This document shows, piece after piece, positions 4,168-64,000 of a stretch of 64,000 nt of DNA. The position numbers were made by a program, and so were the translations under genes. The first letter of the stretch is position 1. Each line of letters starts with the position of its first letter. The DNA comes from Iphione sp. A-MEVVRFRX5 (lineage: Eukaryota), in NCBI GenBank assembly GCA_976226885.1, contig OZ320318.1:806001-870000 (forward strand). The letters run 5' to 3'. Under the pieces are notes generated by a model that was not told the origin of the DNA, searched no databases, and was given only the letters and a program-made list of their open reading frames with translations.

Positions 4168-5816
4168 AATTCGATTTGGATGTGACTATTGCTCTTACCC
4201 TGGATCCACTTCCTCTCTCCCTTAACCCTTTCCTACGGGGCCTCTCCTCTTCTCCATTACTCTGTTACCCACTCCGGGAAACGATGTTAGTGTTATCTAC
4301 TAGTTTCAGTTTAATTTTAAATGCATTTTTCTTTAATAATTTAAGATTTTCCTTGCATTTCCGGAGAGTGCATGTTGACCTGCGGGTTTTATCCACACAG
4401 TTAAGTTATCCAGCAGACAATCCGGGGACCACCGCCCACCATTAGCACACCAAGTACGGCGCCCGTCACCCTGCCCATACTATCATTTCATCCCACTTTA
4501 CATAAGCATTTCATCTCACCCCCCCCCCCTTCACCACCCCTCACCACCAGGTGCCCCCCCCCCTCCATCACCCCTCACCACCAGGCGGCGGGCTTTATAG
4601 CCTTTGTTGTCCCTCCTTCCCACTGTGTATGACTTCCTATGGTAGCGGCCATTGTTGGTCTACTGGCAGTAGTTTAGTCATCACCTTCCCCTCTCACTCG
4701 CACGCACACACTAACACACTCACACACACGTACACCCGTCCTCTCCGTCTCAGCTACATGTACTTCCAAGGCTCCACTAGGAGGGGTGCCAGTTCGGCCG
4801 CCCCCTTCTCTCAACTCCAAGTACAAGGACTATGGATCGCAGGGCAGACCTGGAAGAAAGGCCAAGTAGAAAGGGGGAAAAAAGAGGACTTAGACATCAA
4901 AAGGTAGTGAAGGGTTATTACAAATGATGGACTAGATAAATGGGGGGGGGTGGAGAGAAAAACGTTTAGCAGTTCAAATGACTAGGGTAAGTTGGTAATG
5001 TCGGTTCTGGTAGTCATAGAGATGAAAGAACCGTTTGTAAATCAATTTCTTTCATCCACCATTCTGTTTTTTGTCATTAAACGGGCGAGGAGGCCTGGTT
5101 TGATATCTATTCATATTATGGACAGGTGTGTCATTAATAAACTGTAATCTGATCGGACAGTGAGCGAGAGCGTTACTCATGGGCTGACTATACGTAATGC
5201 CCTGATTCTGGGAAAGGTAGATTAAAAGATAACAATAACTAGTGAGATATGGGCTCCTTAAAGGTAGCCGTGCTGATTCCCCAAAATAACGGTTTATTTT
5301 CACAAATTGCACGGCTTTGTCTAATAACGTCCATTAACCACCAGGTGTGGTGTGACTCGTGCAGACAGGGTTATCTCTCTAACATGGCTCGAGGTCATAT
5401 TTACATCAGAAGTGACATGATAACTACGTGAAAGGGTTATCTGTTTGTAGATGTTTAAGGAGGTATCGTAAATAAGTCGTATGAAGGTGTTATCAGAAAG
5501 CTACACTGATGGAAACTCTACTCACGTACCCATGTCTAGGTTGTGTCTGCTGAAGTTTTACTGCTTGACTTGTTATTCTATATTTTTATTTCTGAAGAAT
5601 ATTCGTTGCAACCGTTGGTAATTACAAGCTCATTCCTGACTGCTTCCCTGCAGCAGGTGACAGTTGGATATACACATACGGCAAAAGAAAACATTACTCT
5701 GGGTATTATTGATAAAATTACATGATTTCTTGAATAGCCGAGTTTCAACCGTGTCAGACACTGAAATAAAAAGAGGCTCATCACATTCATTATCATCAGC
5801 TTTCTCTCCAAAGTAA

Positions 5817-6124
5817 GGCGCTGTTCACATGCATCCTGACAAATAAGCCGCCCCCGTTTGTGGACACAGAGAAACCCGCTGCAGAGATTGTCAGGTAATT
5901 GCCCACATATGTTAACCAGGTGTTCTTTATCACTGCCATCTATGGAGTCCCCATGCAGACATAGATGAAACCCATCCCAGATGGTTTGACATCCGCACCC
6001 GTGTACTGACACAGAAAAGTCTTCATATATGTGAATGAGTACAATGGTAAGGGAGGCCTGGAAGAAAATCCATCCCCGTGTGCAGATGCAGAATATACAA
6101 ATCAGGATGCATGTGAATGAGACC
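5817..6124. mobile_element. PIF/Harbinger-type (Tourist-like) MITE, family A, degenerate
   Basis: TIRs GGCGCTGTTCACATGCATCCTGA and (rc) GGTCTCATTCACATGCATCCTGA. Flanks are TAA and CAA. Length 308 bp. Internal motif AACCCATCCCAGATGGTTTGACATC is shared with the copies at 32153, 34952 and 49688. Confidence 0.75.
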
Positions 6125-49687: not shown

Positions 49688-49994
49688 AGCCATGTTCACA
49701 TATAACTGGATGAAAATCCATCTCCGGACGTGGGTGCGGATGATACTCCCTGCTGAGATGGTTGTTAATTGCTTTTACATGGGTAGCAGATGTCTTTTAC
49801 CATTGTGTTCTATGGAATTTGGGTCCGGGTCCGGAGAAAACCCATCCCAGATGGTTTGTCATCTGCAGCCGTGTCCAGACACGGATATGTCAGTCTGTAT
49901 GTGAATGCCTATTATGGGAACACCACGCTGGTTAAATATCTGTCCCAGTGTACGGGTGTGGTCCATAAAAATCAGGATGCATGAGAACAACCCC
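49688..49994. mobile_element. PIF/Harbinger-type MITE, family A, degenerate
   Basis: TTA|AGCCATGTTCACAT ... CATGAGAACAACCCC|TTA. Length 307 bp. Internal AACCCATCCCAGATGGTTTGTCATC. Confidence 0.75.
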
Positions 49995-54310: not shown

Positions 54311-55039
54311 ACCAGGCACATCAGATCAATCTCACTATGTTAAAGAGTTGCCCCCCCACACTGCCTCCTACTGAGTAGCACATGTAATTAATCCACTGAA
54401 GATTTAATGCCCTCCCATTAAAGACTTCAATTGCCTGCCCGTTTCACCACTGTAGCCTCGCATCAGGCGGAGGCGCCGAGCCGCCCCGCTCAATGGCCGA
54501 CTTACTGATGGCCGCTGTTAAGGTGCAGAGAGATAAACACAAACCCATCACCAGCCATCAGAACACATCAAACATTGATACCTCCAAATGTAATTAAATT
54601 GACTTCCCTGTTTGCAATGTTTAAAGTGCGAGGATTGTTGGTGGAAAGTAGGACCAAGCCAAAATATCGGTAACCTAATTCTTCATGTCATTTATCAAAA
54701 TAACACTTGCCTTAACACTTACTACCGATAATGATGAATTTCTGTCAAATGTAGATTCAGTGGGCAGTAAGTTGATAGTAGATTTGATTTCGCATTTCAT
54801 ATTTACCCTAGACAAATATGACTGGGAATATGAGTAATTATATTGTCAAGCATCAGTTTTAAACACCGCTTTTTAAAACTGGCGGCCAGAACTGATTTCC
54901 GGAGCACTTCCCTTCCCATGATCCTCACACACCTGGGGCTCACTCAGGTTTTATCATTGTTTTCATATCTGCTCCCATTTACAAGAAAGGGAGGCAAAAC
55001 ATTGTTTTGTGTTTGTTAAAGCAGTATTTTGTTACATAC

Positions 55040-55086
55040 ATGACAAGTCCGGTGCAGTACCCCAGTATGACTGTGCTCTTCCCTTC
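55040..55086 (-). CDS. Candidate 47-bp internal exon of an unidentified host gene
   Basis: Minus strand: TTTAATTACTGCCGTTACAG|GAAGGG...CTTGTCAT|GTATGT. Reads EGKSTVILGYCTGLV in phase 0. No homology recognised. Confidence 0.2.
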
Positions 55087-56990
55087 CTGTAACGGCAGTA
55101 ATTAAATAATTAAAGAAGTACACGTAGTGTGTCATGTAAAAGACAAACAGACATGTATGGCCGTAGTTTCCAAGAAAACCTAACGCAGGTTCCTCAAAGT
55201 CCAAAGGGATCTGCCCACGTTGCTCTTTTTTAGCTGTTCATCCAATCTGATAGATATGAAAAACAAATCATTTACAAAAGGGAAAGATGAGAGTCACAGG
55301 GTCAGTGAGCGAATGGGTGATAGAATGTTCCCTGAGGGTGCGAAAGGCACTTGTTGTAATATCTATGATAAAAGGTTTGATTTTTTTCAGGTTGTATTTT
55401 TTAACCGGTGGATGTCTGTAACTACCAATATACGGGGAGAGGGGGCCCCGGTCCAAGTGCCTCGTAAAAGGGTGGTCATTAAATAATACAACAACTAAAC
55501 TCACTCAGATGAGAGAGGACAGAAAGAAAAACACTTGCCCTTATGTAACTGTCAATCGATAGTAAATTAAGTAATGAAGTGTCAATAGAATCTTCTCTAT
55601 GGGAATTGAGAAAATCTACGTTATTTTCTCAAATAACGTCCGGATGTTTTAAGTTGCTAAAGATTTAAATGAAATCGTTCATGTTTTTTCTATGTTTAGG
55701 TGGAGGTGGATGTTGTCGATACCGCCATGTTGAGAAACAGCAGATGTAAAGGTGAAATACGTAGATAAGGAAACACTACATAAAGAAAAGGCAGGTTTTT
55801 CATTTACACATAAACAATAATGCAAATGTATGTAATAATGTTGGATACAAAGCCACATTTTCCTGGTAATATTACTTATTGCTTTTCCATGTATAGTAAT
55901 CAAATATAACAGACAAAGCGACCCCTCGGGGCCAACTAATTAGCAGATTGTTGAAGTGTCAATGACACTGTTACAACACTAATGTTTACTATTTCTTAAG
56001 ACAATGTCTGGAAAATAAGCAAGCTGATTGGTGAAAGCTCTATTATAAATATCACAAATAGTAAAAAACAGTCCGTTGTAATGGCTTCTGGCAATACATT
56101 AATTGTGCACCTTGCTTATGTATCCTTATCTGGTAAAACCCAGTGACTCACAGATCCAGATGCATGATGTTAGGACACATGGGAAACGGGTACTTTATAT
56201 GCCTTTGTCCTTCGTCATCCCGCATTTGACGCCATACCTACAAGTACATGGAAAACACACCTAACACACACAGAGGTCCTATATTTGACACCTGATGTAT
56301 GTATACCTCTCAATGTATAAAAGAAAACAGGCACCTTTTCCTCCTGGTGACCCGTCACCTCTCACTTCACCTGTGCTTCCCCCACCTTTGTTGTCAAGGT
56401 GACGAGTATCTGTAACCAAGATAACAGGTGTATATAGGTTAGACAGGTGAGCTTTGTCTGTTGTAAGCTTCACGTTGGTCCAAGTGAACAGACGAAAGGT
56501 CGTTATGTTGTATTCTCGAATTATTCTCATGAGGCATAAGACTGTTTATCTCTTTAGTTTATAAGAAGAATTCAATAAATCATTAGTGGGAATAAAAAGG
56601 TCTTTTGTTAATTTCTGTCAGAAGAATGATGAGGAATATGATGGTTTGTTTTGTTATGAGTTATATTTAACTAGTGCTCTCTACCCAGTTATGATTATTT
56701 TTCTATTTATCCCATGATGCATCAAATCAGCATCAGTGATGCTTATGTATAAAATGATGCACTATTTTACATAAAAGCATTAATACTTACAGGTCATGAC
56801 GAAATGTGTTCCAGATCATATACAGAGATAAACTAGGTATTAAAATAGTGGAAATCACCTCCTGACCCTGTTCTTAATTGAACATTTTCTTCTGGGAATA
56901 ATATTTTTCAAAGTTTGCATTCCAGTAATGTAAATCAGGATAAACTAGATGTAAATCTTCTAAATTATATCTTACTTTGAACCATGTTTT

Positions 56991-57004
56991 GTTGCCATGG
57001 CAAC
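56991..57004. promoter_or_regulatory. Perfect palindromic RFX X-box
   Basis: GTTGCCATGGCAAC. It could equally be part of an old repeat. Confidence 0.45.
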
Positions 57005-57252
57005 CAAATAAACAAAAAAAGAAATTTTCAAAGTAGCATGCAATTCAAGGGCTTTCACTTGATAATACAATATTACAAAGTATCTCCTGCATTAAACCCT
57101 ACAGCTAAACTTGATGTATGGAACAGCAGTTACCACTTTCAAAAACATTAGTTTTGTTAGTGAGTAAAGTGTTAAAGTCTGGTGTTCTGGAATCTTGATG
57201 TCCGTGTGTGTTAGTAAATCATAAGTAGTGTAGGGGGAGTGGGGTTCAGGAG

Positions 57253-57376
57253 GAGTTTTCAAGTAGGTCAGTGGTTGGTCACGTGACAAGGTCTATGTCA
57301 AAGGTCACATGACTGAGTTTTCAAGTAGGTCAGTGGTTGGTCACGTGACAAGGTCTACGTCAGAGGTCACATGACT
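57253..57376. repeat. 62-bp tandem duplication in the putative terminal repeat
   Basis: GAGTTTTCAAGTAGGTCAGTGGTTGGTCACGTGACAAGGTCTA(T/C)GTCA(A/G)AGGTCACATGACT at 57253 and 57315, with 2 substitutions. Confidence 0.95.
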
Positions 57377-57514
57377 GAATAAGGACGATTGAACAAGGAC
57401 GTAAACAAAGAAGGAGGCAGTACTTCGCATGGGAACTGGTATGTATTGAAGTAGGTTAATGATAGGTTAATGGTTACTTACATGGGAGGTAGAATAAAGG
57501 AAGTAGAGATGATT

Positions 57515-57820
57515 TTAGAACAGGATATGAGTATGTTTTCGAAAGGAGGAGGAGGAGGTATGTTGAGGGATTTTTGAGTGTAGGCGTTGAAGCGTGTTTT
57601 TAGCGATATCGTGTGAGGGAGTTATAGTGGAAGGAATGCATGTGAAGCGTAAATGGGATAGGGTCATATCTAGAGGATGAAACAATAATATTGAGAAGAC
57701 AGAAAGAGATAAGGAGAAGTTAGAAGTAAGGTCTAATGGATGAAAGTATGTAGGTGAAGTGGTAAAAGGTTCGAGACGTTTTGTGGCGAACGTGAGCATG
57801 GAGGTGCAATAACCTTTCAT
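57515..57820 (-). CDS. Hypothetical 101-aa protein or terminal exon near the element end
   Basis: ATG at 57820, 47 bp from a palindromic TATA. FHPLD occurs twice in the frame. A strong acceptor (CTTTGTCTCCTCTGTCCAG, exon start 57833) suggests it could be a downstream exon. No homology recognised. Confidence 0.35.
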   Translation of the reverse strand: MKGYCTSMLTFATKRLEPFTTSPTYFHPLDLTSNFSLSLSVFSILLFHPLDMTLSHLRFTCIPSTITPSHDIAKNTLQRLHSKIPQHTSSSSFRKHTHILF

Positions 57821-57864
57821 GGAATCAACAAAGCTGGACAGAGGAGACAAAGGTAGGTGGGAAA

Positions 57865-57882
57865 CCTATATATATATATAGG
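57865..57882. promoter_or_regulatory. Palindromic TATA element CCTATATATATATATAGG
   Basis: Perfect 18-bp palindrome between divergent ATGs at 57820 (-) and 57975 (+). Confidence 0.45.
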
Positions 57883-57974
57883 AAAGGAGAAGGTCAGTGT
57901 TAGGTGAAGAGCGCTAATATTTGCTAGAGATTGTCTTGTCGAGAGCGGTTTGGTGGCTACCCAAGAGTGAAGGT

Positions 57975-59148
57975 ATGGAGGCAATTTCAGATAACGTGTC
58001 AGTTGAAATGATAGAAGGATATGTGAAGATGGAAAGGAGGCGAAATGGAGAGATGGTGAGGAAATGGAGAGTTGCTAAGGAGTTGTTTGAACAAGCAGGG
58101 AAGCGATGGACGAAGATTTTGCGAGGCGAGGAATGTAAAGTGGTCGTTCAACATAAACAATGGTGTATGCAGCTGAAGACTTACACTGGGAGAGAGTACG
58201 TTTCTTTTGCACGATTGGGAGTTTCGGGAGATAGGCTTACGTAAGTATAAATTGAAATGACATGGAATGTTGGTAGATTAATGTATGAGATTGTGTGTAT
58301 TAGTGAGAAGTATGGGTTTTTGTGGAAGTATACGTTTGAAAAAGGTAAATTTTATGTATGAAGGAAGAAGCACCAAGAAGTAATACGCAATGTTATTATT
58401 TTTGTATTGCAGCTACGATTGTTTTAATGTCACAGAAGATGAGTTTCACGAGGTATTAGAGCGGGTGAAGCAGTCTAGAAAAGATGAGAAGAACAAGAAA
58501 GAGACAGCTGAGGAAGCAGATAGAGGAAGTGATGATGAGGAGAAGGCAGAGGAGGAGGAAGAAGAGGCCTCAAAAGCGAAGAAGAAGAAGGTGGAGAAGC
58601 AGATACAGTACCAGAGGTCCTGGTACCAACATGTTTCAGCCGTCGACGGGTCAATTAGAACGAACGGTGTCTTGTTCATTCAGAATGCTCTTTGTGTTGC
58701 TGAAGGCGAAAACCATCAGTCTGAGAATGAAATGGTCGAGTACGGGAGGCAGGAAGGACTGACCATCACGGTAGGCGAAATCTGTGAGAAAACATATCTA
58801 TATATGCTACGTGATGGCTATAAGATGCTGATAAAGAACTGGTGTGAAGGTTGTCGTGTGAGAGCAGACGGGCAGGAAAGGCACATTCCAGGTTGTGTGG
58901 AATTGCCTGAAATGGTTGATTGGAGCGCAGTGCATGCTGCTCATATCAGAATTTCACCCGCACGATTGATGGAAGGTACAAAGTGTATGGTGAAGGTGTA
59001 TTTGGATTGTGATAACATTGAGGATGCTGATGATGTGCAGGTGGATTTAGATATGTGCAGGGATGTCATCAAGAGAGGAGAAGCCAAAGGAGACGAGTTT
59101 CTGTGTGTGATTCTTGAAAGAGACTATGATGTGTTGAAGAGGAAGTGA
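57975..59148 (+). CDS. 2-exon 333-aa protein: PC4-like region, acidic/basic linker, C-terminal CxxC-x6-Q-x2-H-x2-GC putative Zn-binding motif
   Basis: Exons 57975-58240 and 58413-59148 (1002 nt). The intron is GTAAGT...TTGCAG, phase 2, and joins in frame to give KTYTGREYVSFARLGVSGDRLT-YDCFNVTEDEFHEVLERVK, a strand-strand-helix pattern resembling PC4. Start context GGTATGG. Motif CEGCRVRADGQERHIPGC. Domain calls are by eye. Confidence 0.75.
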
Positions 59149-60121
59149 GATTTCGGGCTCCATGTGACATGGTGTGTGTTTACAAATAAGAAGAAATGTA
59201 TGCCTTATTAACACTCTATTTATTTAGTACTAGTTCACATACATCAGTTATATAGGAACTCAAAAGTAGTTATATATATCCTAATAGCAACACTTGTACG
59301 AGACATACATATCTACGTTGTTTGAAAATGCTATACAAACTATATGTAGTGATTTATATATGTTCCTGAGTTAGTATATATTGTATAATGATGTAGCATG
59401 AATTATAAGGACGGAAGTCAGAGATTATAAGTAAGATTAATATTATGGTGTACATAGGCATAGGCAGCATGCAATGAGTACAATGTAATATGTTAACATG
59501 ATGTCTACATGAATAAACTGTCCTTATAAACTCAATGGATTTTTGTGTGTGTGTGTGTGTGTTTTTCAACTACCATCAAGAACGAGAGTAAATATATCTT
59601 AACTATAATGAACAAAGTATACGTAATGTTTTTCTACGTAATAATATACCGATATGAAGATATTACTGAAACTGAACCAAACTAAGCTGAATACAGCGAA
59701 CTATTTGAGAGTATATATGGATATATTGTTAAGTATTTTGGATATGTAAGATGTTATAAGTAGACGATCATAAGTATAAATTTAATATGGATTTAGTTCA
59801 ATAATATGTGTTATATCAAAAAGCATCTGGCGACAGTGAAGAAAACATCAAATATCAGATAACCATCCTATCATGAACTCAAAACAGATCTATCCTAAAA
59901 GAAAACATGGTAAGGCACAAGTCGCGCAGTTGTTGTAATAAAAGACACGTCATAATATAGGAGATATATGCAAGTAAAATGTTCGATGGAATTCTCAAGC
60001 TGCTTTGGCTGTGAACAGCCATAAGTTGCCAGCATCATGTGTATGTGTTACGTCGTAATAAAAGATACATTATGATATAGAAGATATATGCAAGTAAAAA
60101 TCCGCAATGTTCAAGTTGGTA

Positions 60122-60136
60122 TCCGCTAGATGGAGC
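60122..60136 (+). promoter_or_regulatory. CTCF-like motif inside the element
   Basis: TCCGCTAGATGGAGC lies between convergent 3' ends. Confidence 0.4.
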
Positions 60137-60222
60137 AAGAGTCGGTGTAATGTGGTTGGAACCAAACAAGAGGGTGACGAAAACCAATACATAGTTTTCA
60201 AGTCCTGTTAGGTTGGGATAGG

Positions 60223-60717
60223 TTATTCCGCGGCATCAGAGTCACTGTCATATGCAAGAGTAGCTACCGGTTCTCGTTTCCAAAACTGCGGGGGAGGAGA
60301 AGGACTGGTGCTGCTCGATGGATCAGGGTTAGGATCGGTGCTGGTCGATGGGCCGGGAATAGGATCGGTGCCGGTTGATAGGTTGGGAGTAGAATCTTGT
60401 TCACTTGGTTGAGACACAGAACATCCTTGCACGGGCGACTGCGGAGGTGAAGCATTCTCTTCAGGCAACTGTAAGAGAAGTAAGAAGGAAAAAAAAGAAT
60501 AGCTGAATGAGACATGATGTTCATAGCACAGAGATATATATCATGGTTAAATATGGTAGATGAAGTAGGTTAAATGATTTATAGGTTAGTTTAAAAAGAG
60601 TGGGGGTGCCTTAAACATGTAGCGGGGAGATTTGGATGAACAGATACATATATATGTATGCATGGCACGCGTGCATGCGTGCGCACACACGCATGCATGC
60701 GTGTGTGCGTGTGTGCA

Positions 60718-60748
<31 letters not shown>

Positions 60749-63129
60749 AAAAATTAGAGACACATACATCTGTTATCTTGGGTGTTGACTGGACACGGTT
60801 TAGGACTCTAATCGATCGGCGCACAGGCTGAGTTGCTGTTGCAGAGTCGTTTTTTGAGGTTCGTCGACGACAGGTTTTGCCGGCAGGTTCTCGTCCTCTT
60901 GGTGAGGATGAAGTGGCTGTAGATGTGGTTGAAGTCTTCGGTTTCACAATCATGCTCTCTTGTGTAGGCGTGTGGTCAAAAGTTGAGGACGTTGTGGTAG
61001 TGGTGGTAGTTGTGGTGGAGTTGGTCGAAGGACGTATGGGCCGTCTAGTTGATGAATCAGTAGTGACAGCGGCAGAAGTAACAGTGGAGAAAGCAGAAGA
61101 ACCAGTAGAAACAAGAGGTTGAGATGAAGAATGAGAGGGATGGCATTGCGGAGGATAGAGCATGATGCCTTGAGAACGAGGAGGTGGCAGGGGCGGCCGT
61201 GGTCGGGGTGATGAGGTAAAGGACGAGCAAGAAGTGTACAAGTTTGGAGAGTTTGAAGATGAAGAAGGGGAGAGGATAGGGGCATGGACAATGGGAGTTT
61301 CAGTTGATGTGGTGGAGATGGGCGGTGTAGTGACGGGAACAGAGTGAGATAGAGATGAAGCAGTTGTCAGTGCTGGGAGAGAAGAAGACAGGGAAGCAGG
61401 TGGGTCAGTATGTTCGTTCTCAGGGCTACGGCTATGAGAATGGTTGGAGGGAGTCAAAGTGGTGTGAGGTATGGAGCGTGTAGATGATTCGAAAGAAGAG
61501 ATGTAATCTGCGAGGGATGTGCCGCGAGGAAGGGAAGCAGTGGAGGGTCTATAGTCAAAAGGAGATGTAGTGCCATGTTTATGTCCAAAGGATGACTGTA
61601 AGAAAGGGTTAGTGTTTGGAGGAAGATCAATGCTTGCTGGTGGATGCAAGAAAGGGGGATGGCGAATAGAGGTAGATGGGGTAGAGGCGCATGTAGGAGA
61701 AGATGAGATAGGGGGCATGGGTATGAGAGGAAATCTAGATATGTAGTCACCAGAAGTGATTAAGGGAACATCGAGTGAAGATGAAGTAGGTGTGGAAAGA
61801 TCATCAAGGGGGATGGACTCAAAAAGTGCGGGTGAGAGTGGTTGAGGTGGACGAGAGGGGCGAGGTGGAGGGTGGGGGCGTGTCGAGGGTGAAGTAGGGG
61901 AGTATGTAGACTCCGAGGAGTGGTTGTGACTGTCATGTTTGTAAGCAGCTTTCTCATCAGTGCTATAACATAGAACAGTAGGCGCAGAAAAATGAGCAAG
62001 GGGGATTACCAAATGTTTCTTTAAAACTTATATATGAGGTAATGAATGAGAGAACAATATCATATGTACACACAGGAGTAACAGGGACTTAGCAGAGGGT
62101 ATAGTCACGGAGAGAGCATTAATGCGTAGAAAGGGGAGACACATGGATGTTGAGCTTACAGTTTAGTGAGCAAAATATGGCTATCAATTTAGACCTTTTC
62201 GACTTTGTGAAAATATTCACAGTTCAAATAATCAGGATATTAATAATAACAATAATGATATATGAGGGAATAAATAATAGAAGAAATATATTTGACAGGA
62301 TAATGTATAAGTCAGATGATGATGTAAAAGAGAGATTTATAGGTTGTACTTACCTGCGAGTAGGCGGTGGAGGGGTTGGAGGCGATGGAGATCTAGTGGT
62401 TGGAGATTGTTGTGATGCAGAGGATGCCGGTGATGGTGGTACGAAGTATGGATGTCTGCGCATCAGTGCAGAGTACCACTTGAAACGCACACATGGCACC
62501 ATAAGTGCCGCAATGGTGAGGAAAAGCAAAACTGTCCCAACACAGGAAAGTATAATGACATCCGAGTTGGTGTATGTGCGAATGTATTCTGTCAGAGTTG
62601 GAGACGGATAAGTTGGCACTGATGGGCCGTTGTCATCAGGTACTGGATGGATTAAGACAGGTTCTACTTTTGACTGTGTCATGCTTTCAATCGGGTCCTC
62701 GGCGGGGGTTGCTGCAATCTCGGCTGTTGCAACAGAATATGCAGATGGCGGGAGTTCGCCTTCAATGTTATCACTGCTGGCAATGGAATGTGGATTGATC
62801 GGTGGTGATATTAGTTTAATTGTTGATGTTGGGATATATAGCAGACGAAAAACAATGTTCATGTCAATGTCCACCGCTTCAACATACCGTAGATTAGGGA
62901 AGACTTCGCGCAGTCGATCACGTAAACGCACCTCTGGATCCACGATATGTGGTGCATTCAAGTAAAGTCGGTAAAAGCGTGGGTACACATGGTGTAGTGA
63001 GTAAAAAAAGGATGTCGCCACACTGTTGCAATGAACGGAAGTCTGTAGACAAACACATCGTCTGCATAATATGTCCTCACTGAAGACAAAGTGGATGAGA
63101 AGTAATCCCAAAAAACTACGTAAAAGCAT
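60223..63129 (-). CDS. 3-exon 738-aa type I membrane protein: signal peptide, LRRNT-like Cys cap with degenerate LRRs, S/T/P stalk, TM, ~520-aa disordered tail
   Basis: Exons 63129-62354, 61962-60768 and 60468-60223 (2217 nt, 739 codons). Intron 1 is GTAAGT...TTATAG (phase 2) and intron 2 is GTATGT...TCTCTTACAG (phase 0); both join in frame. Start context GCCATCATG. Hydrophobic N-terminus at aa 1-17, CRRCVCLQTSVHC, TM at aa ~191-214 followed by RFK. Confidence 0.8.
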
Positions 63130-63690
63130 GATGGCAACGCCGTCATCAGATACCGATGCAGAGGCTGACTACGGGGCTGGTTTTCAAATCCCGCAGTGTA
63201 CCGGGTAATGGGTGCATGCACTATAAAATGAACTCGACCATTGTCGCAAAGTTTAACAAGATTAATTAAAATGTAATAAAAATGTGGTTTTTAGTAGTCG
63301 GAAAGATATGAAGAGCCAGTCCTAGAACGTTCGATGAAGAATTACCAATTAATGCAAAAAGCATGTCAACATTATCGGAAAATGGACTGGTCCTTGTAGG
63401 AGTATCTAATGGGGAGGGGGCACTTCGCGGTCGCGGGGTGATAAAGTAGCCGTAAACATTTCAGCGGACACCTCTGAAAGCACAGAAGGCAAGATAAGAC
63501 GAGAAAAGAGGACGAAAGGCTCGTAAATTTTATTAGCAGAGGGGGTGTGCTGGTGGACAGTGCAAATCTCATAGCCGTTTTCAGACACAGGATAGGCGCC
63601 AAGCAGGAGACCAGGAGGACAAAACGGTGTAACAGGAATATACACAGAGAGAAATCAGCGGGGTATTTGCAGACAGGAAATAGCGCCGAA

Positions 63691-64000
63691 ATGTATCAGA
63701 AGTTTCTCATTCTGCTTGTTTTAGTGTTTATTGTGACACTAATTAAGTCGGAATGTCCTTTGAGGTGTGGTGGATGCAATCCACCCTTGATGAGATGTAG
63801 AGGAGAACTTGATCCGTTCCTGGTTAACTTTCGGAGAGATGAAAGGATGAAAGGACTCGATTGGGGAGGATGTATGATCAGTGAGATCAGACCTGAAGTG
63901 TTTGAAATATTTGAGAATGTGGAATTTCTGGACATTAGACATCAAGGAATTGAATTTAAGTGCTGGTCACTGCGGAAAGTACCAGCACATGTAAAAGTGT
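63691..64000 (+). CDS. 5' part of a secreted or membrane mini-LRR protein (no stop in window; absent from the ORF track)
   Basis: MYQKFLILLVLVFIVTLIKS-ECPLRCGGCNPPLMRCRGELDPFLVNFRRDERMKGLDWGGCMISEIRPEVFEIFENVEFLDIRHQGIEFKCWSLRKVPAHVKV. It has a signal peptide, a 4-Cys LRRNT-like cap, and two LxxLxLxxNxI-type motifs 24 aa apart (M53, V77). Confidence 0.8.
   Translation, partial: MYQKFLILLVLVFIVTLIKSECPLRCGGCNPPLMRCRGELDPFLVNFRRDERMKGLDWGGCMISEIRPEVFEIFENVEFLDIRHQGIEFKCWSLRKVPAHVKV

What the first reader, a model, noticed from the sequence alone, without database searches (positions are those of the whole stretch)
60223..64000. Head-to-head pair of mini-LRR cell-surface genes carried by a probable Polinton/adintovirus-like element
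Seen: two divergent genes with ATGs 561 bp apart (63129 minus, 63691 plus). Each encodes a signal peptide, then a 4-Cys cap (C-x2-C-x-C-x6-C and C-x3-C-x2-C-x6-C), then only about two LRR-like units. Established: a Cys cap plus 24-aa LRRs is the architecture of extracellular LRR receptors (Toll/TLR, VLR, LRIG types). It is not among the defined Polinton core genes (pPolB, integrase, major and minor capsid, ATPase, protease). Inference: this is a co-regulated two-component surface module, such as a receptor plus partner or decoy. An endogenous virus-like element might use it for immune mimicry, signalling manipulation or superinfection exclusion. I know of no characterisation of such a pair, but I could not search.
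Basis: partly seen in the sequence, partly recalled or inferred. Interest (0 to 1): 0.85.

Follow-up and report, generated by a model that had tools for sequence, protein, structure and literature searches.

The report
Orphan surface genes in foreign-looking DNA
Two intact back-to-back genes for secreted or cell-surface proteins with no relatives in the databases searched sit in a block of DNA that looks like the end of an inserted virus-like element, but neither the identity of the element nor a partnership between the two proteins could be shown.

Summary
The two genes are real. Their ATGs are 561 bp apart, and each has a hydrophobic leader and a four-Cys cap starting at residue 22. Gene A (minus, three exons, 738 aa) looks like a type I membrane protein with a 523-aa Ser/Pro/Thr tail and no TIR match; its LRR claim is unproven (970 of 2000 shuffles score as well). 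Gene B has two 24-aa LRR-like units (5 of 2000 shuffles; weak TLR3 match) but is cut by the window end at 103 aa. No homologues were found for A, B or the neighbouring spliced gene C. No Polinton core gene lies in the window. The genes do sit in a compositionally distinct block, 57.1-57.2 kb to the window end: one-sided G>C skew regardless of gene strand, the Maverick end motif AGTAGT at 57224, and a 62-bp tandem repeat behind it. Best reading: an intact, intron-bearing accessory or cargo region at the left end of a Maverick/Polinton-like element, with gene A a signalling adaptor (about 0.5).

The parts
57100..64000 (.). Compositionally distinct block, putative left part of an inserted DNA element; left edge between about 57100 and 57250, right side runs off the window
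   Evidence: G-C skew +0.356 after repeat masking, 26 of 26 bins positive; 101 overlapping host segments of equal length range -0.179 to +0.078. Change point 57146 (57105-57169) by G versus C and 57203 (57187-57378) by a Markov-2 model.
57224..57229 (+). AGTAGT, candidate Maverick-type 5' terminus
   Evidence: Only AGTAGT on the plus strand in 56900-57500; 0.14 expected by chance in 240 nt; 0.63 nats from the best Markov boundary. Motif defined in PMC8097293 section 7. The window has 17 plus-strand copies overall.
57253..57378 (+). Two tandem 62-bp copies (96-97% alike) with E-box-type CACGTG/CACATG words; candidate terminal-repeat interior
   Evidence: No inverted copy in the window.
57515..57820 (-). 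ORF D, 101 aa, doubtful
   Evidence: Open frame not beyond chance: 218 of 2000 resamples; no family.
57865..57880 (.). Palindromic TATA run between ORF D and gene C (second head-to-head layout)
   Evidence: TATA matches on both strands.
57975..58240 (+). Gene C exon 1 (spliced product 333 aa, orphan)
   Evidence: In-phase GT-AG intron of 172 nt, donor ranks 35 of 757; open frame 13 of 2000 resamples; no homologue. PC4-like by eye only; profile test not significant.
58413..59148 (+). Gene C exon 2: acidic/basic linker, then a Cys/His-containing domain; no integrase match
   Evidence: 0 of 2000 resamples; no homologue among 959 candidates; no usable Atlas hit; no Pfam integrase match at E<=1 or E<=10.
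60223..60468 (-). Gene A exon 3, end of cytoplasmic tail and stop
   Evidence: Phase-0 acceptor behind a long pyrimidine tract.
60768..61962 (-). Gene A exon 2, Ser/Pro/Thr-rich cytoplasmic tail with PxxP motifs and tyrosines
   Evidence: Stops by frame 22/0/7; 0 of 2000 resamples; motifs; no Pfam family.
62354..63129 (-). Gene A exon 1: leader (about 1-18), Cys cap (22-34; 63028-63066), about 65 aa of possible degenerate LRR, Pro/Ser/Thr stalk, transmembrane helix (about 191-215; 62485-62559), basic residues after it
   Evidence: no homologue in 1.84 billion representatives for residues 1-120.
63130..63690 (.). 561-nt spacer between the two start codons
   Evidence: one consensus TATA at 63222 on the plus strand, 13 plus-strand and 7 minus-strand ATGs in the spacer; CpG observed/expected 0.97.
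63691..64000 (+). Gene B, first 103 aa only: leader, Cys cap (22-36; 63754-63798), two LRR-like units of period 24 from residue 53, possible start of a C-terminal cap
   Evidence: no homologue among 39 longer candidates.

Best explanation
The genes are the intact accessory (cargo) region just inside the left end of an integrated Maverick/Polinton-like linear DNA element whose core genes lie beyond 64000. SHOWN: three intact coding frames (A and C with in-phase short introns, B cut off), packed tightly on both strands in a block whose base composition differs from the flank; A has leader, small Cys-capped ectodomain, stalk, one transmembrane helix and a 523-aa low-complexity tail; B begins as a short LRR protein entering the secretory pathway. 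INFERRED: (a) the block is an element end, and the one-sided loss of C reflects the strand displaced during end-primed replication; (b) the genes are transcribed and spliced by the host nucleus; (c) A works as a non-enzymatic receptor or adaptor: its small ectodomain binds a host or element protein, and its tail recruits SH3- and SH2-type host proteins through PxxP motifs and acidic-flanked tyrosines, changing signalling or adhesion of the cell that carries the element; (d) B is a separate small LRR binder, secreted or anchored. They most likely act as independent host-interaction genes; I put direct A-B binding at about 0.2.
For: Block: skew +0.356, 26 of 26 bins, against -0.179 to +0.078 in 101 host segments; present in all 6 non-coding stretches tested (0.57, 0.69, 0.17, 0.36, 0.31, 0.22; highest near the left edge) and at four-fold sites of genes on both strands (A exon 2 G77:C18, B G13:C3, C exon 1 G9:C2). 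Boundary estimates bracket AGTAGT at 57224, the commonest vertebrate Maverick end motif (PMC8097293 section 7). A host-type dispersed repeat lies at 55970-56105, left of the boundary, with a copy at 24937; tandem and N masking covers 9% of the block against 28% of the rest. Mavericks have accessory regions flanking the core, and nematode Mavericks carry intron-bearing cargo genes in a 2-5 kb region inside the left TIR (bioRxiv 10.1101/2022.07.12.499685, passage). All three proteins are orphans, as fast-evolving accessory genes often are (own knowledge). A's anatomy and tail motifs. B's LRR signal.
Against: No core gene: none of 29 ATG ORFs of at least 120 aa is long enough for pPolB (longest 375 aa); 0 pPolB motif matches in six frames; no Pfam family at cut-off for 35 frames scanned. 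The region seen is already 6.8 kb without a core gene, longer than the 2-5 kb nematode cargo region. Intact vertebrate Mavericks were found intronless in their genes (PMC8097293 passages). The G-versus-C change point (57105-57169) lies 55-120 nt left of AGTAGT, and AGTAGT has a 0.14 chance of occurring there anyway. Simple deamination of a displaced strand predicts T>A, but the block has A 0.314 > T 0.259; A exon 1 four-fold sites show no skew (G28:C25). Gene C failed my PC4 profile test (56 of 1000 shuffles as good) and shows no integrase match. The tail motifs of A are short and common in Pro-rich sequence; no ITIM, PPxY or TRAF6 motif was found. No expression data.
Confidence: 0.5

Rival explanations
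1. One reading: Polinton-borne A and B are co-transcribed from one bidirectional promoter and form a two-chain surface receptor (B the ligand-binding or decoy chain, A the signalling chain), used for immune mimicry or superinfection exclusion.
For: Head-to-head starts 561 nt apart; both enter the secretory pathway; both caps start at residue 22; a 14-residue stretch aligns at 7 of 14 identities; A has a signalling-type tail but a minimal ectodomain, which a partner could complement (inference; LRR co-receptor pairs such as TLR1/TLR2 and GPIb/GPIX are known, own knowledge).
Against: The A-B similarity is not significant (E 0.55). The spacer has no symmetrical promoter; one TATA on B's strand with upstream ATGs behind it. 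A second divergent layout exists in the block. B's C-terminus is unseen. No second copy of the pair was found anywhere.
Confidence: 0.12
2. The block is a different kind of mobile or viral DNA (Helitron-type rolling-circle element with captured genes, another large cargo transposon, or a fragment of another endogenous DNA virus); A and B are its passengers.
For: Single-stranded intermediates of other elements also give strand bias (own knowledge); introns are common in captured genes; the earlier change point (57105-57169) does not coincide with AGTAGT; no Polinton gene is seen.
Against: No significant hairpin at the boundary (z -1.19 for 57100-57260, -1.01 for 57224-57400); no transposase, helicase or viral family match in the frames scanned; AGTAGT plus internal tandem repeat fits Mavericks better.
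Confidence: 0.2
3. An ordinary, fast-evolving host cluster of small LRR and mucin-like membrane genes (animal genomes hold many orphan LRR-transmembrane genes), with no mobile element.
For: Spliceosomal introns, one holding a GT microsatellite like the flank; intact frames; LRR cap plus short LRR plus stalk plus transmembrane helix is a common host architecture; Atlas neighbours are animal host clusters.
Against: Skew is independent of gene strand and starts abruptly; introns of 172-391 nt and tight packing contrast with 57 kb of repeat-rich flank in which no gene family was detected among the 27 flank frames scanned; conserved host genes would be expected to have relatives among 1.84 billion representatives (0 found).
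Confidence: 0.18

Closest known systems
Intron-bearing cargo region of nematode Mavericks (wasp proteases, krma kinases; bioRxiv 10.1101/2022.07.12.499685, passages read)
   Same: Spliced, poorly conserved genes placed just inside a putative left terminus, ahead of any core gene.
   Different: Cargo here is secretory-pathway proteins, not proteases or kinases; at least 6.8 kb rather than 2-5 kb; core genes and TIR pair not seen.
Vertebrate Mavericks with accessory regions (PMC8097293, passages and section 7 read)
   Same: AGTAGT end motif at the boundary; accessory position at the flank.
   Different: Those elements' genes were reported intronless; no LRR or transmembrane term found in the one supplement searched; no core module visible here.
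Adintovirus accessory genes (PMC8502044, section 3.2 and text labels of Fig. S2 read)
   Same: Host-interaction and membrane-active accessory genes; map labels include MOSUB and SSDBP, which may denote PC4-type ssDNA binders of the kind gene C resembles by eye.
   Different: Listed accessories are PLA2X, GasderminX, Cupiennin, Oncoid, Bcl2, IAP and others; 'leucine' 0 times in the main text and LRR/leucine/Toll 0 times in the readable part of the supplement; gene C's PC4 likeness was not confirmed.
Animal extracellular LRR proteins (TLR3, VLR, LRIG, GPIb/GPIX type; architecture from own knowledge)
   Same: Leader, four-Cys N-cap, 24-residue repeats in B with a weak TLR3 match; A has the stalk-transmembrane-tail layout.
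   Different: Only about two units; no TIR, Ig or kinase match in A; no N-glycosylation sequon in A's exon-1 product or in the seen part of B; A lacks C-cap cysteines and fails a repeat-consensus test.
EPCIP/C21orf62 (PF15137) clusters
   Same: Nearest ESM-feature neighbour of A residues 1-120 (0.85, 139 of 256 features).
   Different: Below the 0.9 and 170-feature levels that mark family membership; no Pfam match to PF15137.
Adenovirus E3 region (recalled, not looked up)
   Same: Spliced, lineage-specific type I membrane proteins of a linear dsDNA virus that modulate the host cell; a functional analogy only.
   Different: No sequence link; E3 proteins are Ig-like or CR1-type, not LRR.

Membership tests
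Polinton/Maverick/adintovirus | Protein-primed type B DNA polymerase | tested here: inconclusive
   Absent from the window, but the block runs off the right edge.
Polinton/Maverick/adintovirus | Retroviral-like integrase | tested here: inconclusive
   Gene C exon 2 gives no Pfam integrase match, no homologue, no Atlas hit; the rest of the element is unseen.
Polinton/Maverick/adintovirus | Major and minor capsid, packaging ATPase, cysteine protease | tested here: inconclusive
   No such ORF in the window; the one Walker A-like match in the block lies in A's low-complexity tail.
Polinton/Maverick/adintovirus | 5'-(AGT)2 or (AG)3 end motif at the terminus | tested here: met
   AGTAGT at 57224, within the Markov boundary interval and 55 nt outside the G/C interval; chance expectation 0.14. 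Weak on its own.
Polinton/Maverick/adintovirus | Terminal inverted repeat pair and 6-bp target-site duplication | not testable with these tools
   The right end lies outside the window; no inverted copy of 57100-57500 inside it.
Polinton/Maverick/adintovirus | Intronless genes (reported for intact vertebrate elements; cargo of nematode elements is an exception) | tested here: not met
   Genes A and C need GT-AG introns. Not disqualifying for cargo.
Extracellular LRR protein, gene B | Leader plus four-Cys N-cap | tested here: met
Extracellular LRR protein, gene B | LxxLxLxxN/CxL repeats of about 24 aa | tested here: met
   Period 24, 5 of 2000 shuffles; TLR3 E about 1e-5 summed; no Pfam LRR family.
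Extracellular LRR protein, gene B | LRR solenoid fold | tested here: inconclusive
   Single-sequence model pLDDT 46; best Foldseek E 1.9, best Z 3.6.
Extracellular LRR protein, gene B | C-cap and membrane anchor | not testable with these tools
   Gene cut at 64000.
Extracellular LRR protein, gene A | Leader plus four-Cys N-cap, single transmembrane helix | tested here: met
Extracellular LRR protein, gene A | LRR consensus repeats | tested here: inconclusive
   970 of 2000 shuffles score as well; 0 PDB and Pfam matches; LRR clusters among Atlas neighbours at 0.79-0.82.
Extracellular LRR protein, gene A | LRR solenoid fold | tested here: inconclusive
   Single-sequence model pLDDT 50; no LRR chain among the rows listed; best Z 7.0 to RNA polymerase alpha-type folds, a level that is common by chance.
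Toll/TLR | Cytoplasmic TIR domain | tested here: not met
   A's tail (exons 2 and 3 scanned separately) has no Pfam TIR match and is 52% Ser/Pro/Thr. B not testable.
PC4-type ssDNA-binding protein, gene C | PC4 domain | tested here: inconclusive
   No Pfam or PDB PC4 match for exon 1; an 11-sequence phage/bacterial PC4 profile scores the spliced N-terminus at 1.8 bits, 56 of 1000 shuffles as good. A eukaryotic profile was not available.
Helitron | 3' hairpin and Rep/helicase gene | tested here: inconclusive
   No significant hairpin at the boundary; no helicase match in frames scanned; other end unseen.

The most novel reading that the evidence does not exclude
An animal Maverick/Polinton carries a spliced, bidirectionally transcribed two-chain mini-LRR receptor, a short LRR binding chain plus a transmembrane chain with a long Tyr/Pro-rich signalling tail, that rewires signalling in, or shields, the cell hosting the element. 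It would be a surface-receptor module of a virus group whose entry and host interactions are almost unstudied.
Probability: 0.12. Interest if true: 0.85.

Novelty: new variant of a known kind. Interest (0 to 1): 0.45.

Why it matters
Whether animal Polintons behave as real viruses that manipulate host cells is open. Intact, spliced genes for surface or secreted proteins at an element end would be concrete, testable host-interaction factors, and LRR-type cargo did not turn up in my literature searches. The strand-independent skew plus end motif is also a simple way to spot such element ends when no core gene is visible. If the extended contig shows no core genes, what remains is a small cluster of orphan membrane genes of modest interest.

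Tried and rejected
Homologue searches found nothing: A residues 1-120 against 1.84 billion representatives, 0 at E<=0.001; B among proteins of 182-2000 aa, 0 of 39 candidates at E<=0.1 (lengths near B's own were not searched); C exon 2 ORF among 138-441 aa, 0 of 959; C exon 1 among 155-2000 aa, 0 of 26. Pfam, PHROGs and NCBIfam gave nothing at cut-off; one search covered 35 frames, 8 in the block and 27 in the flank, chosen by eye, mostly from the 115 listed. Rfam: 0 matches. Both single-sequence AlphaFold models were low-confidence (pLDDT 50 and 46), so the five fold searches, none of which listed an LRR chain, neither support nor refute an LRR fold. An element end at about 54385 was considered and dropped: skew there is 0.01 and a host-type repeat lies at 55970-56105. 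Gene C as a degenerate integrase (my impression by eye) found no support. Gene C as PC4-like was tested with a profile from 11 phage and plasmid proteins and was not significant. Terminal hairpins were not significant. Literature: (Polinton + LRR + transmembrane + signal peptide) 0 papers; 0 papers; 1 unrelated paper; 1 paper, where PC4 is a table label; 16 papers, none of the 15 listed about animal Polinton LRR genes; one search showed no paper on Polinton strand skew among 20 of 58 listed; one search was uninformative (none of 25 listed mention adintovirus). The library lacks most subscription papers.
Full report
OBSERVATION. Both products begin with a hydrophobic leader and a four-cysteine cap whose first Cys is residue 22. 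Of 99 ATG-started frames of at least 80 aa in the window, 12 have such a leader, 4 such a cap and 3 both: A, B and a Cys-His microsatellite frame (thresholds chosen after seeing the genes). The frames are open beyond chance: 0 of 2000 first-order Markov resamples for A exons 1 and 2, 3 of 2000 for B, but 301 of 2000 for the short A exon 3.

GENE A. Exons 63129-62354, 61962-60768 and 60468-60223 join in phase through GT-AG introns of 391 and 299 nt into 738 codons with one stop. The first donor is the best of 441 minus-strand GT sites in 54400-64000 and the second ranks 24th. The protein has leader, cap, about 65 further ordered-looking residues, a Pro/Ser/Thr stalk, one hydrophobic helix near 191-215 followed by basic residues, and a 523-aa tail that is 21% Ser, 17% Pro and 14% Thr, with 10 tyrosines, one class I and three class II PxxP matches, and no ITIM, PPxY or TRAF6 match. 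No Pfam family matches any exon at cut-off, TIR included. The LRR claim for A is unproven: 970 of 2000 shuffles reach its best two-unit score, PDB gives 0 matches at E<=10, and 0 of 1.84 billion representatives match residues 1-120 at E<=0.001. The Atlas feature search puts EPCIP/C21orf62 first (0.85) and shows LRR families in 7 of 10 rows at 0.79-0.82; by the tool's own calibration this is a lead only. The single-sequence model (pLDDT 50) is too poor for the fold searches to count either way.

GENE B. Only 103 residues lie in the window. Two units with period 24 start at residue 53; 5 of 2000 shuffles score as well. phmmer finds TLR3 at E 7.8e-5, or 1.4e-5 without the leader, summed over several repeats with no single stretch significant. 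The last residues align weakly to TLR3's final repeat and the start of its C-cap, which fits a short stack. Pfam finds no LRR family, the model is poor (pLDDT 46), and no homologue was found among longer proteins. Whether B is anchored or secreted cannot be told. A and B are not detectably related (best E 0.55).

SURROUNDINGS. No Polinton core gene is in the window: the longest of 29 ATG ORFs is 375 aa and belongs to A, pPolB motifs have 0 matches in six frames (motifs recalled), and none of 35 scanned frames reaches a Pfam cut-off. A third spliced gene, C (57975-58240 plus 58413-59148, 333 aa), faces A tail to tail. It is an orphan. By eye its start resembles PC4-type ssDNA binders, and adintovirus maps carry the labels MOSUB and SSDBP (PMC8502044 Fig. 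S2 text; MoSub1 is called a PC4 orthologue in the abstract start of PMC4350104). My test with 11 phage and plasmid PC4 proteins (T5.115 confirmed as PC4) was not significant: 1.8 bits, 56 of 1000 shuffles as good. So gene C does not identify the element.

EVIDENCE FOR AN INSERTED ELEMENT. From about 57.15 kb to the window end the plus strand has G far above C (0.297 against 0.130). After masking, skew is +0.356 with 26 of 26 bins positive; 101 overlapping host segments of equal length range from -0.179 to +0.078, the most one-sided having 17 of 23. The skew holds in all six non-coding stretches and at four-fold sites of genes on both strands, except A exon 1. Two boundary estimates give 57105-57169 and 57187-57378. 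AGTAGT, the commonest end motif of vertebrate Mavericks (PMC8097293 section 7), lies at 57224, with 0.14 expected by chance, and a 62-bp tandem duplication follows at 57253. A dispersed host-type repeat lies just outside, at 55970-56105. Against: A exceeds T, which simple deamination of a displaced strand would not give; the two boundary estimates disagree; no second terminus is visible; intact vertebrate Mavericks were reported intronless. Nematode Mavericks, however, carry intron-bearing cargo inside the left TIR (bioRxiv 10.1101/2022.07.12.499685, passage). I put a Maverick/Polinton-type end at about 0.6, another element at 0.2 and host genes at about 0.2.

IS IT A MODULE? The spacer has one consensus TATA, at 63222 on B's strand, with plus-strand ATGs up to 63409 between it and B; the minus strand has ATGs at 63146, 63217 and 63241 ahead of A's start. 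That fits two separate core promoters as well as one shared promoter. A palindromic TATA at 57865-57880 sits between gene C and the doubtful ORF D, so divergent layout recurs in the block. No second copy of the pair, no expression data and no co-fold are available. The two-component reading is therefore possible but unsupported.

MECHANISM. Most likely these are accessory host-interaction genes of the element, spliced by the host. A would act as an enzyme-free receptor or adaptor whose disordered tail recruits host SH3/SH2 proteins; B as a small LRR binder. The anatomy is shown; expression, topology, partners and purpose are inferred. Overall confidence 0.5.

LITERATURE SEEN. PMC8097293: passages, section 7, one supplement searched (0 hits for accessory, leucine, LRR, PC4, transmembrane). 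PMC8502044: passages, section 3.2, supplement part 1 of 400 and term searches; its slide files were unreadable and the archive was cut, so LRR-like accessories could be described there unseen. bioRxiv 10.1101/2022.07.12.499685: passages only; supplements closed. PMC11662393: passages. All others: search listings only. Adenovirus E3, TLR/VLR/GPIb architecture and Helitron features are recalled. Searches that found no description of LRR membrane genes in Polintons.

VERDICT. Observation partly confirmed; interpretation partly supported. A real cluster of intact orphan secretory-pathway genes at the probable end of a Maverick-like insertion: a new variant of known accessory or cargo regions if the element is confirmed. 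Interest 0.45; the receptor-pair reading has probability about 0.12 and would deserve 0.85. The host organism was not identified.

Noticed in passing
window 57975-59148 (+): Spliced orphan gene C, 333 aa, with a PC4-like start by eye, an acidic/basic linker and a Cys/His cluster; sits nearest the putative terminus. Profile test for PC4 not significant.
   Followed up: partly
window 57865-57880: Perfect palindrome around a TATA run between ORF D and gene C; looks more like a bidirectional core promoter than the A-B spacer does.
   Followed up: partly
window 57376-57481 (-): A strong minus-strand splice donor at 57481 (rank 3 of 441) and a pyrimidine tract ending near 57378 suggest ORF D may belong to a spliced or decayed gene.
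   Followed up: no
window 59185-59225: Poly(A)-type signals for the converging genes C and A may lie close together just behind C's stop (minus-strand AATAAA at 59219; plus-strand AATAAA at 59512).
   Followed up: no
window 5814-6117, 32152-32462, 34959-35260, 49693-49987: Four copies of a 200-300 bp dispersed repeat, 68-72% alike, overlapping open frames of 84-194 aa; no Pfam match in the four frames scanned. Probably a decayed transposon.
   Followed up: partly
window 24937-25070 and 55970-56105: Two copies (74%) of a short host-type dispersed repeat; used to place the element edge to the right of 56105.
   Followed up: yes
window 55019-55504 (-): Two adjacent open frames of 73 and 78 aa that read like pieces of one decayed coding sequence with a His/Cys cluster; left of the block, no skew.
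   Followed up: no
window 59932-59979 and 60052-60099: 48-bp direct repeat (88%) 120 bp apart in the 3' region of gene A.
   Followed up: no
gene A tail, residues 332 and 412: The four-residue word DYIS occurs twice in an otherwise low-complexity tail; candidate repeated phosphotyrosine site.
   Followed up: no
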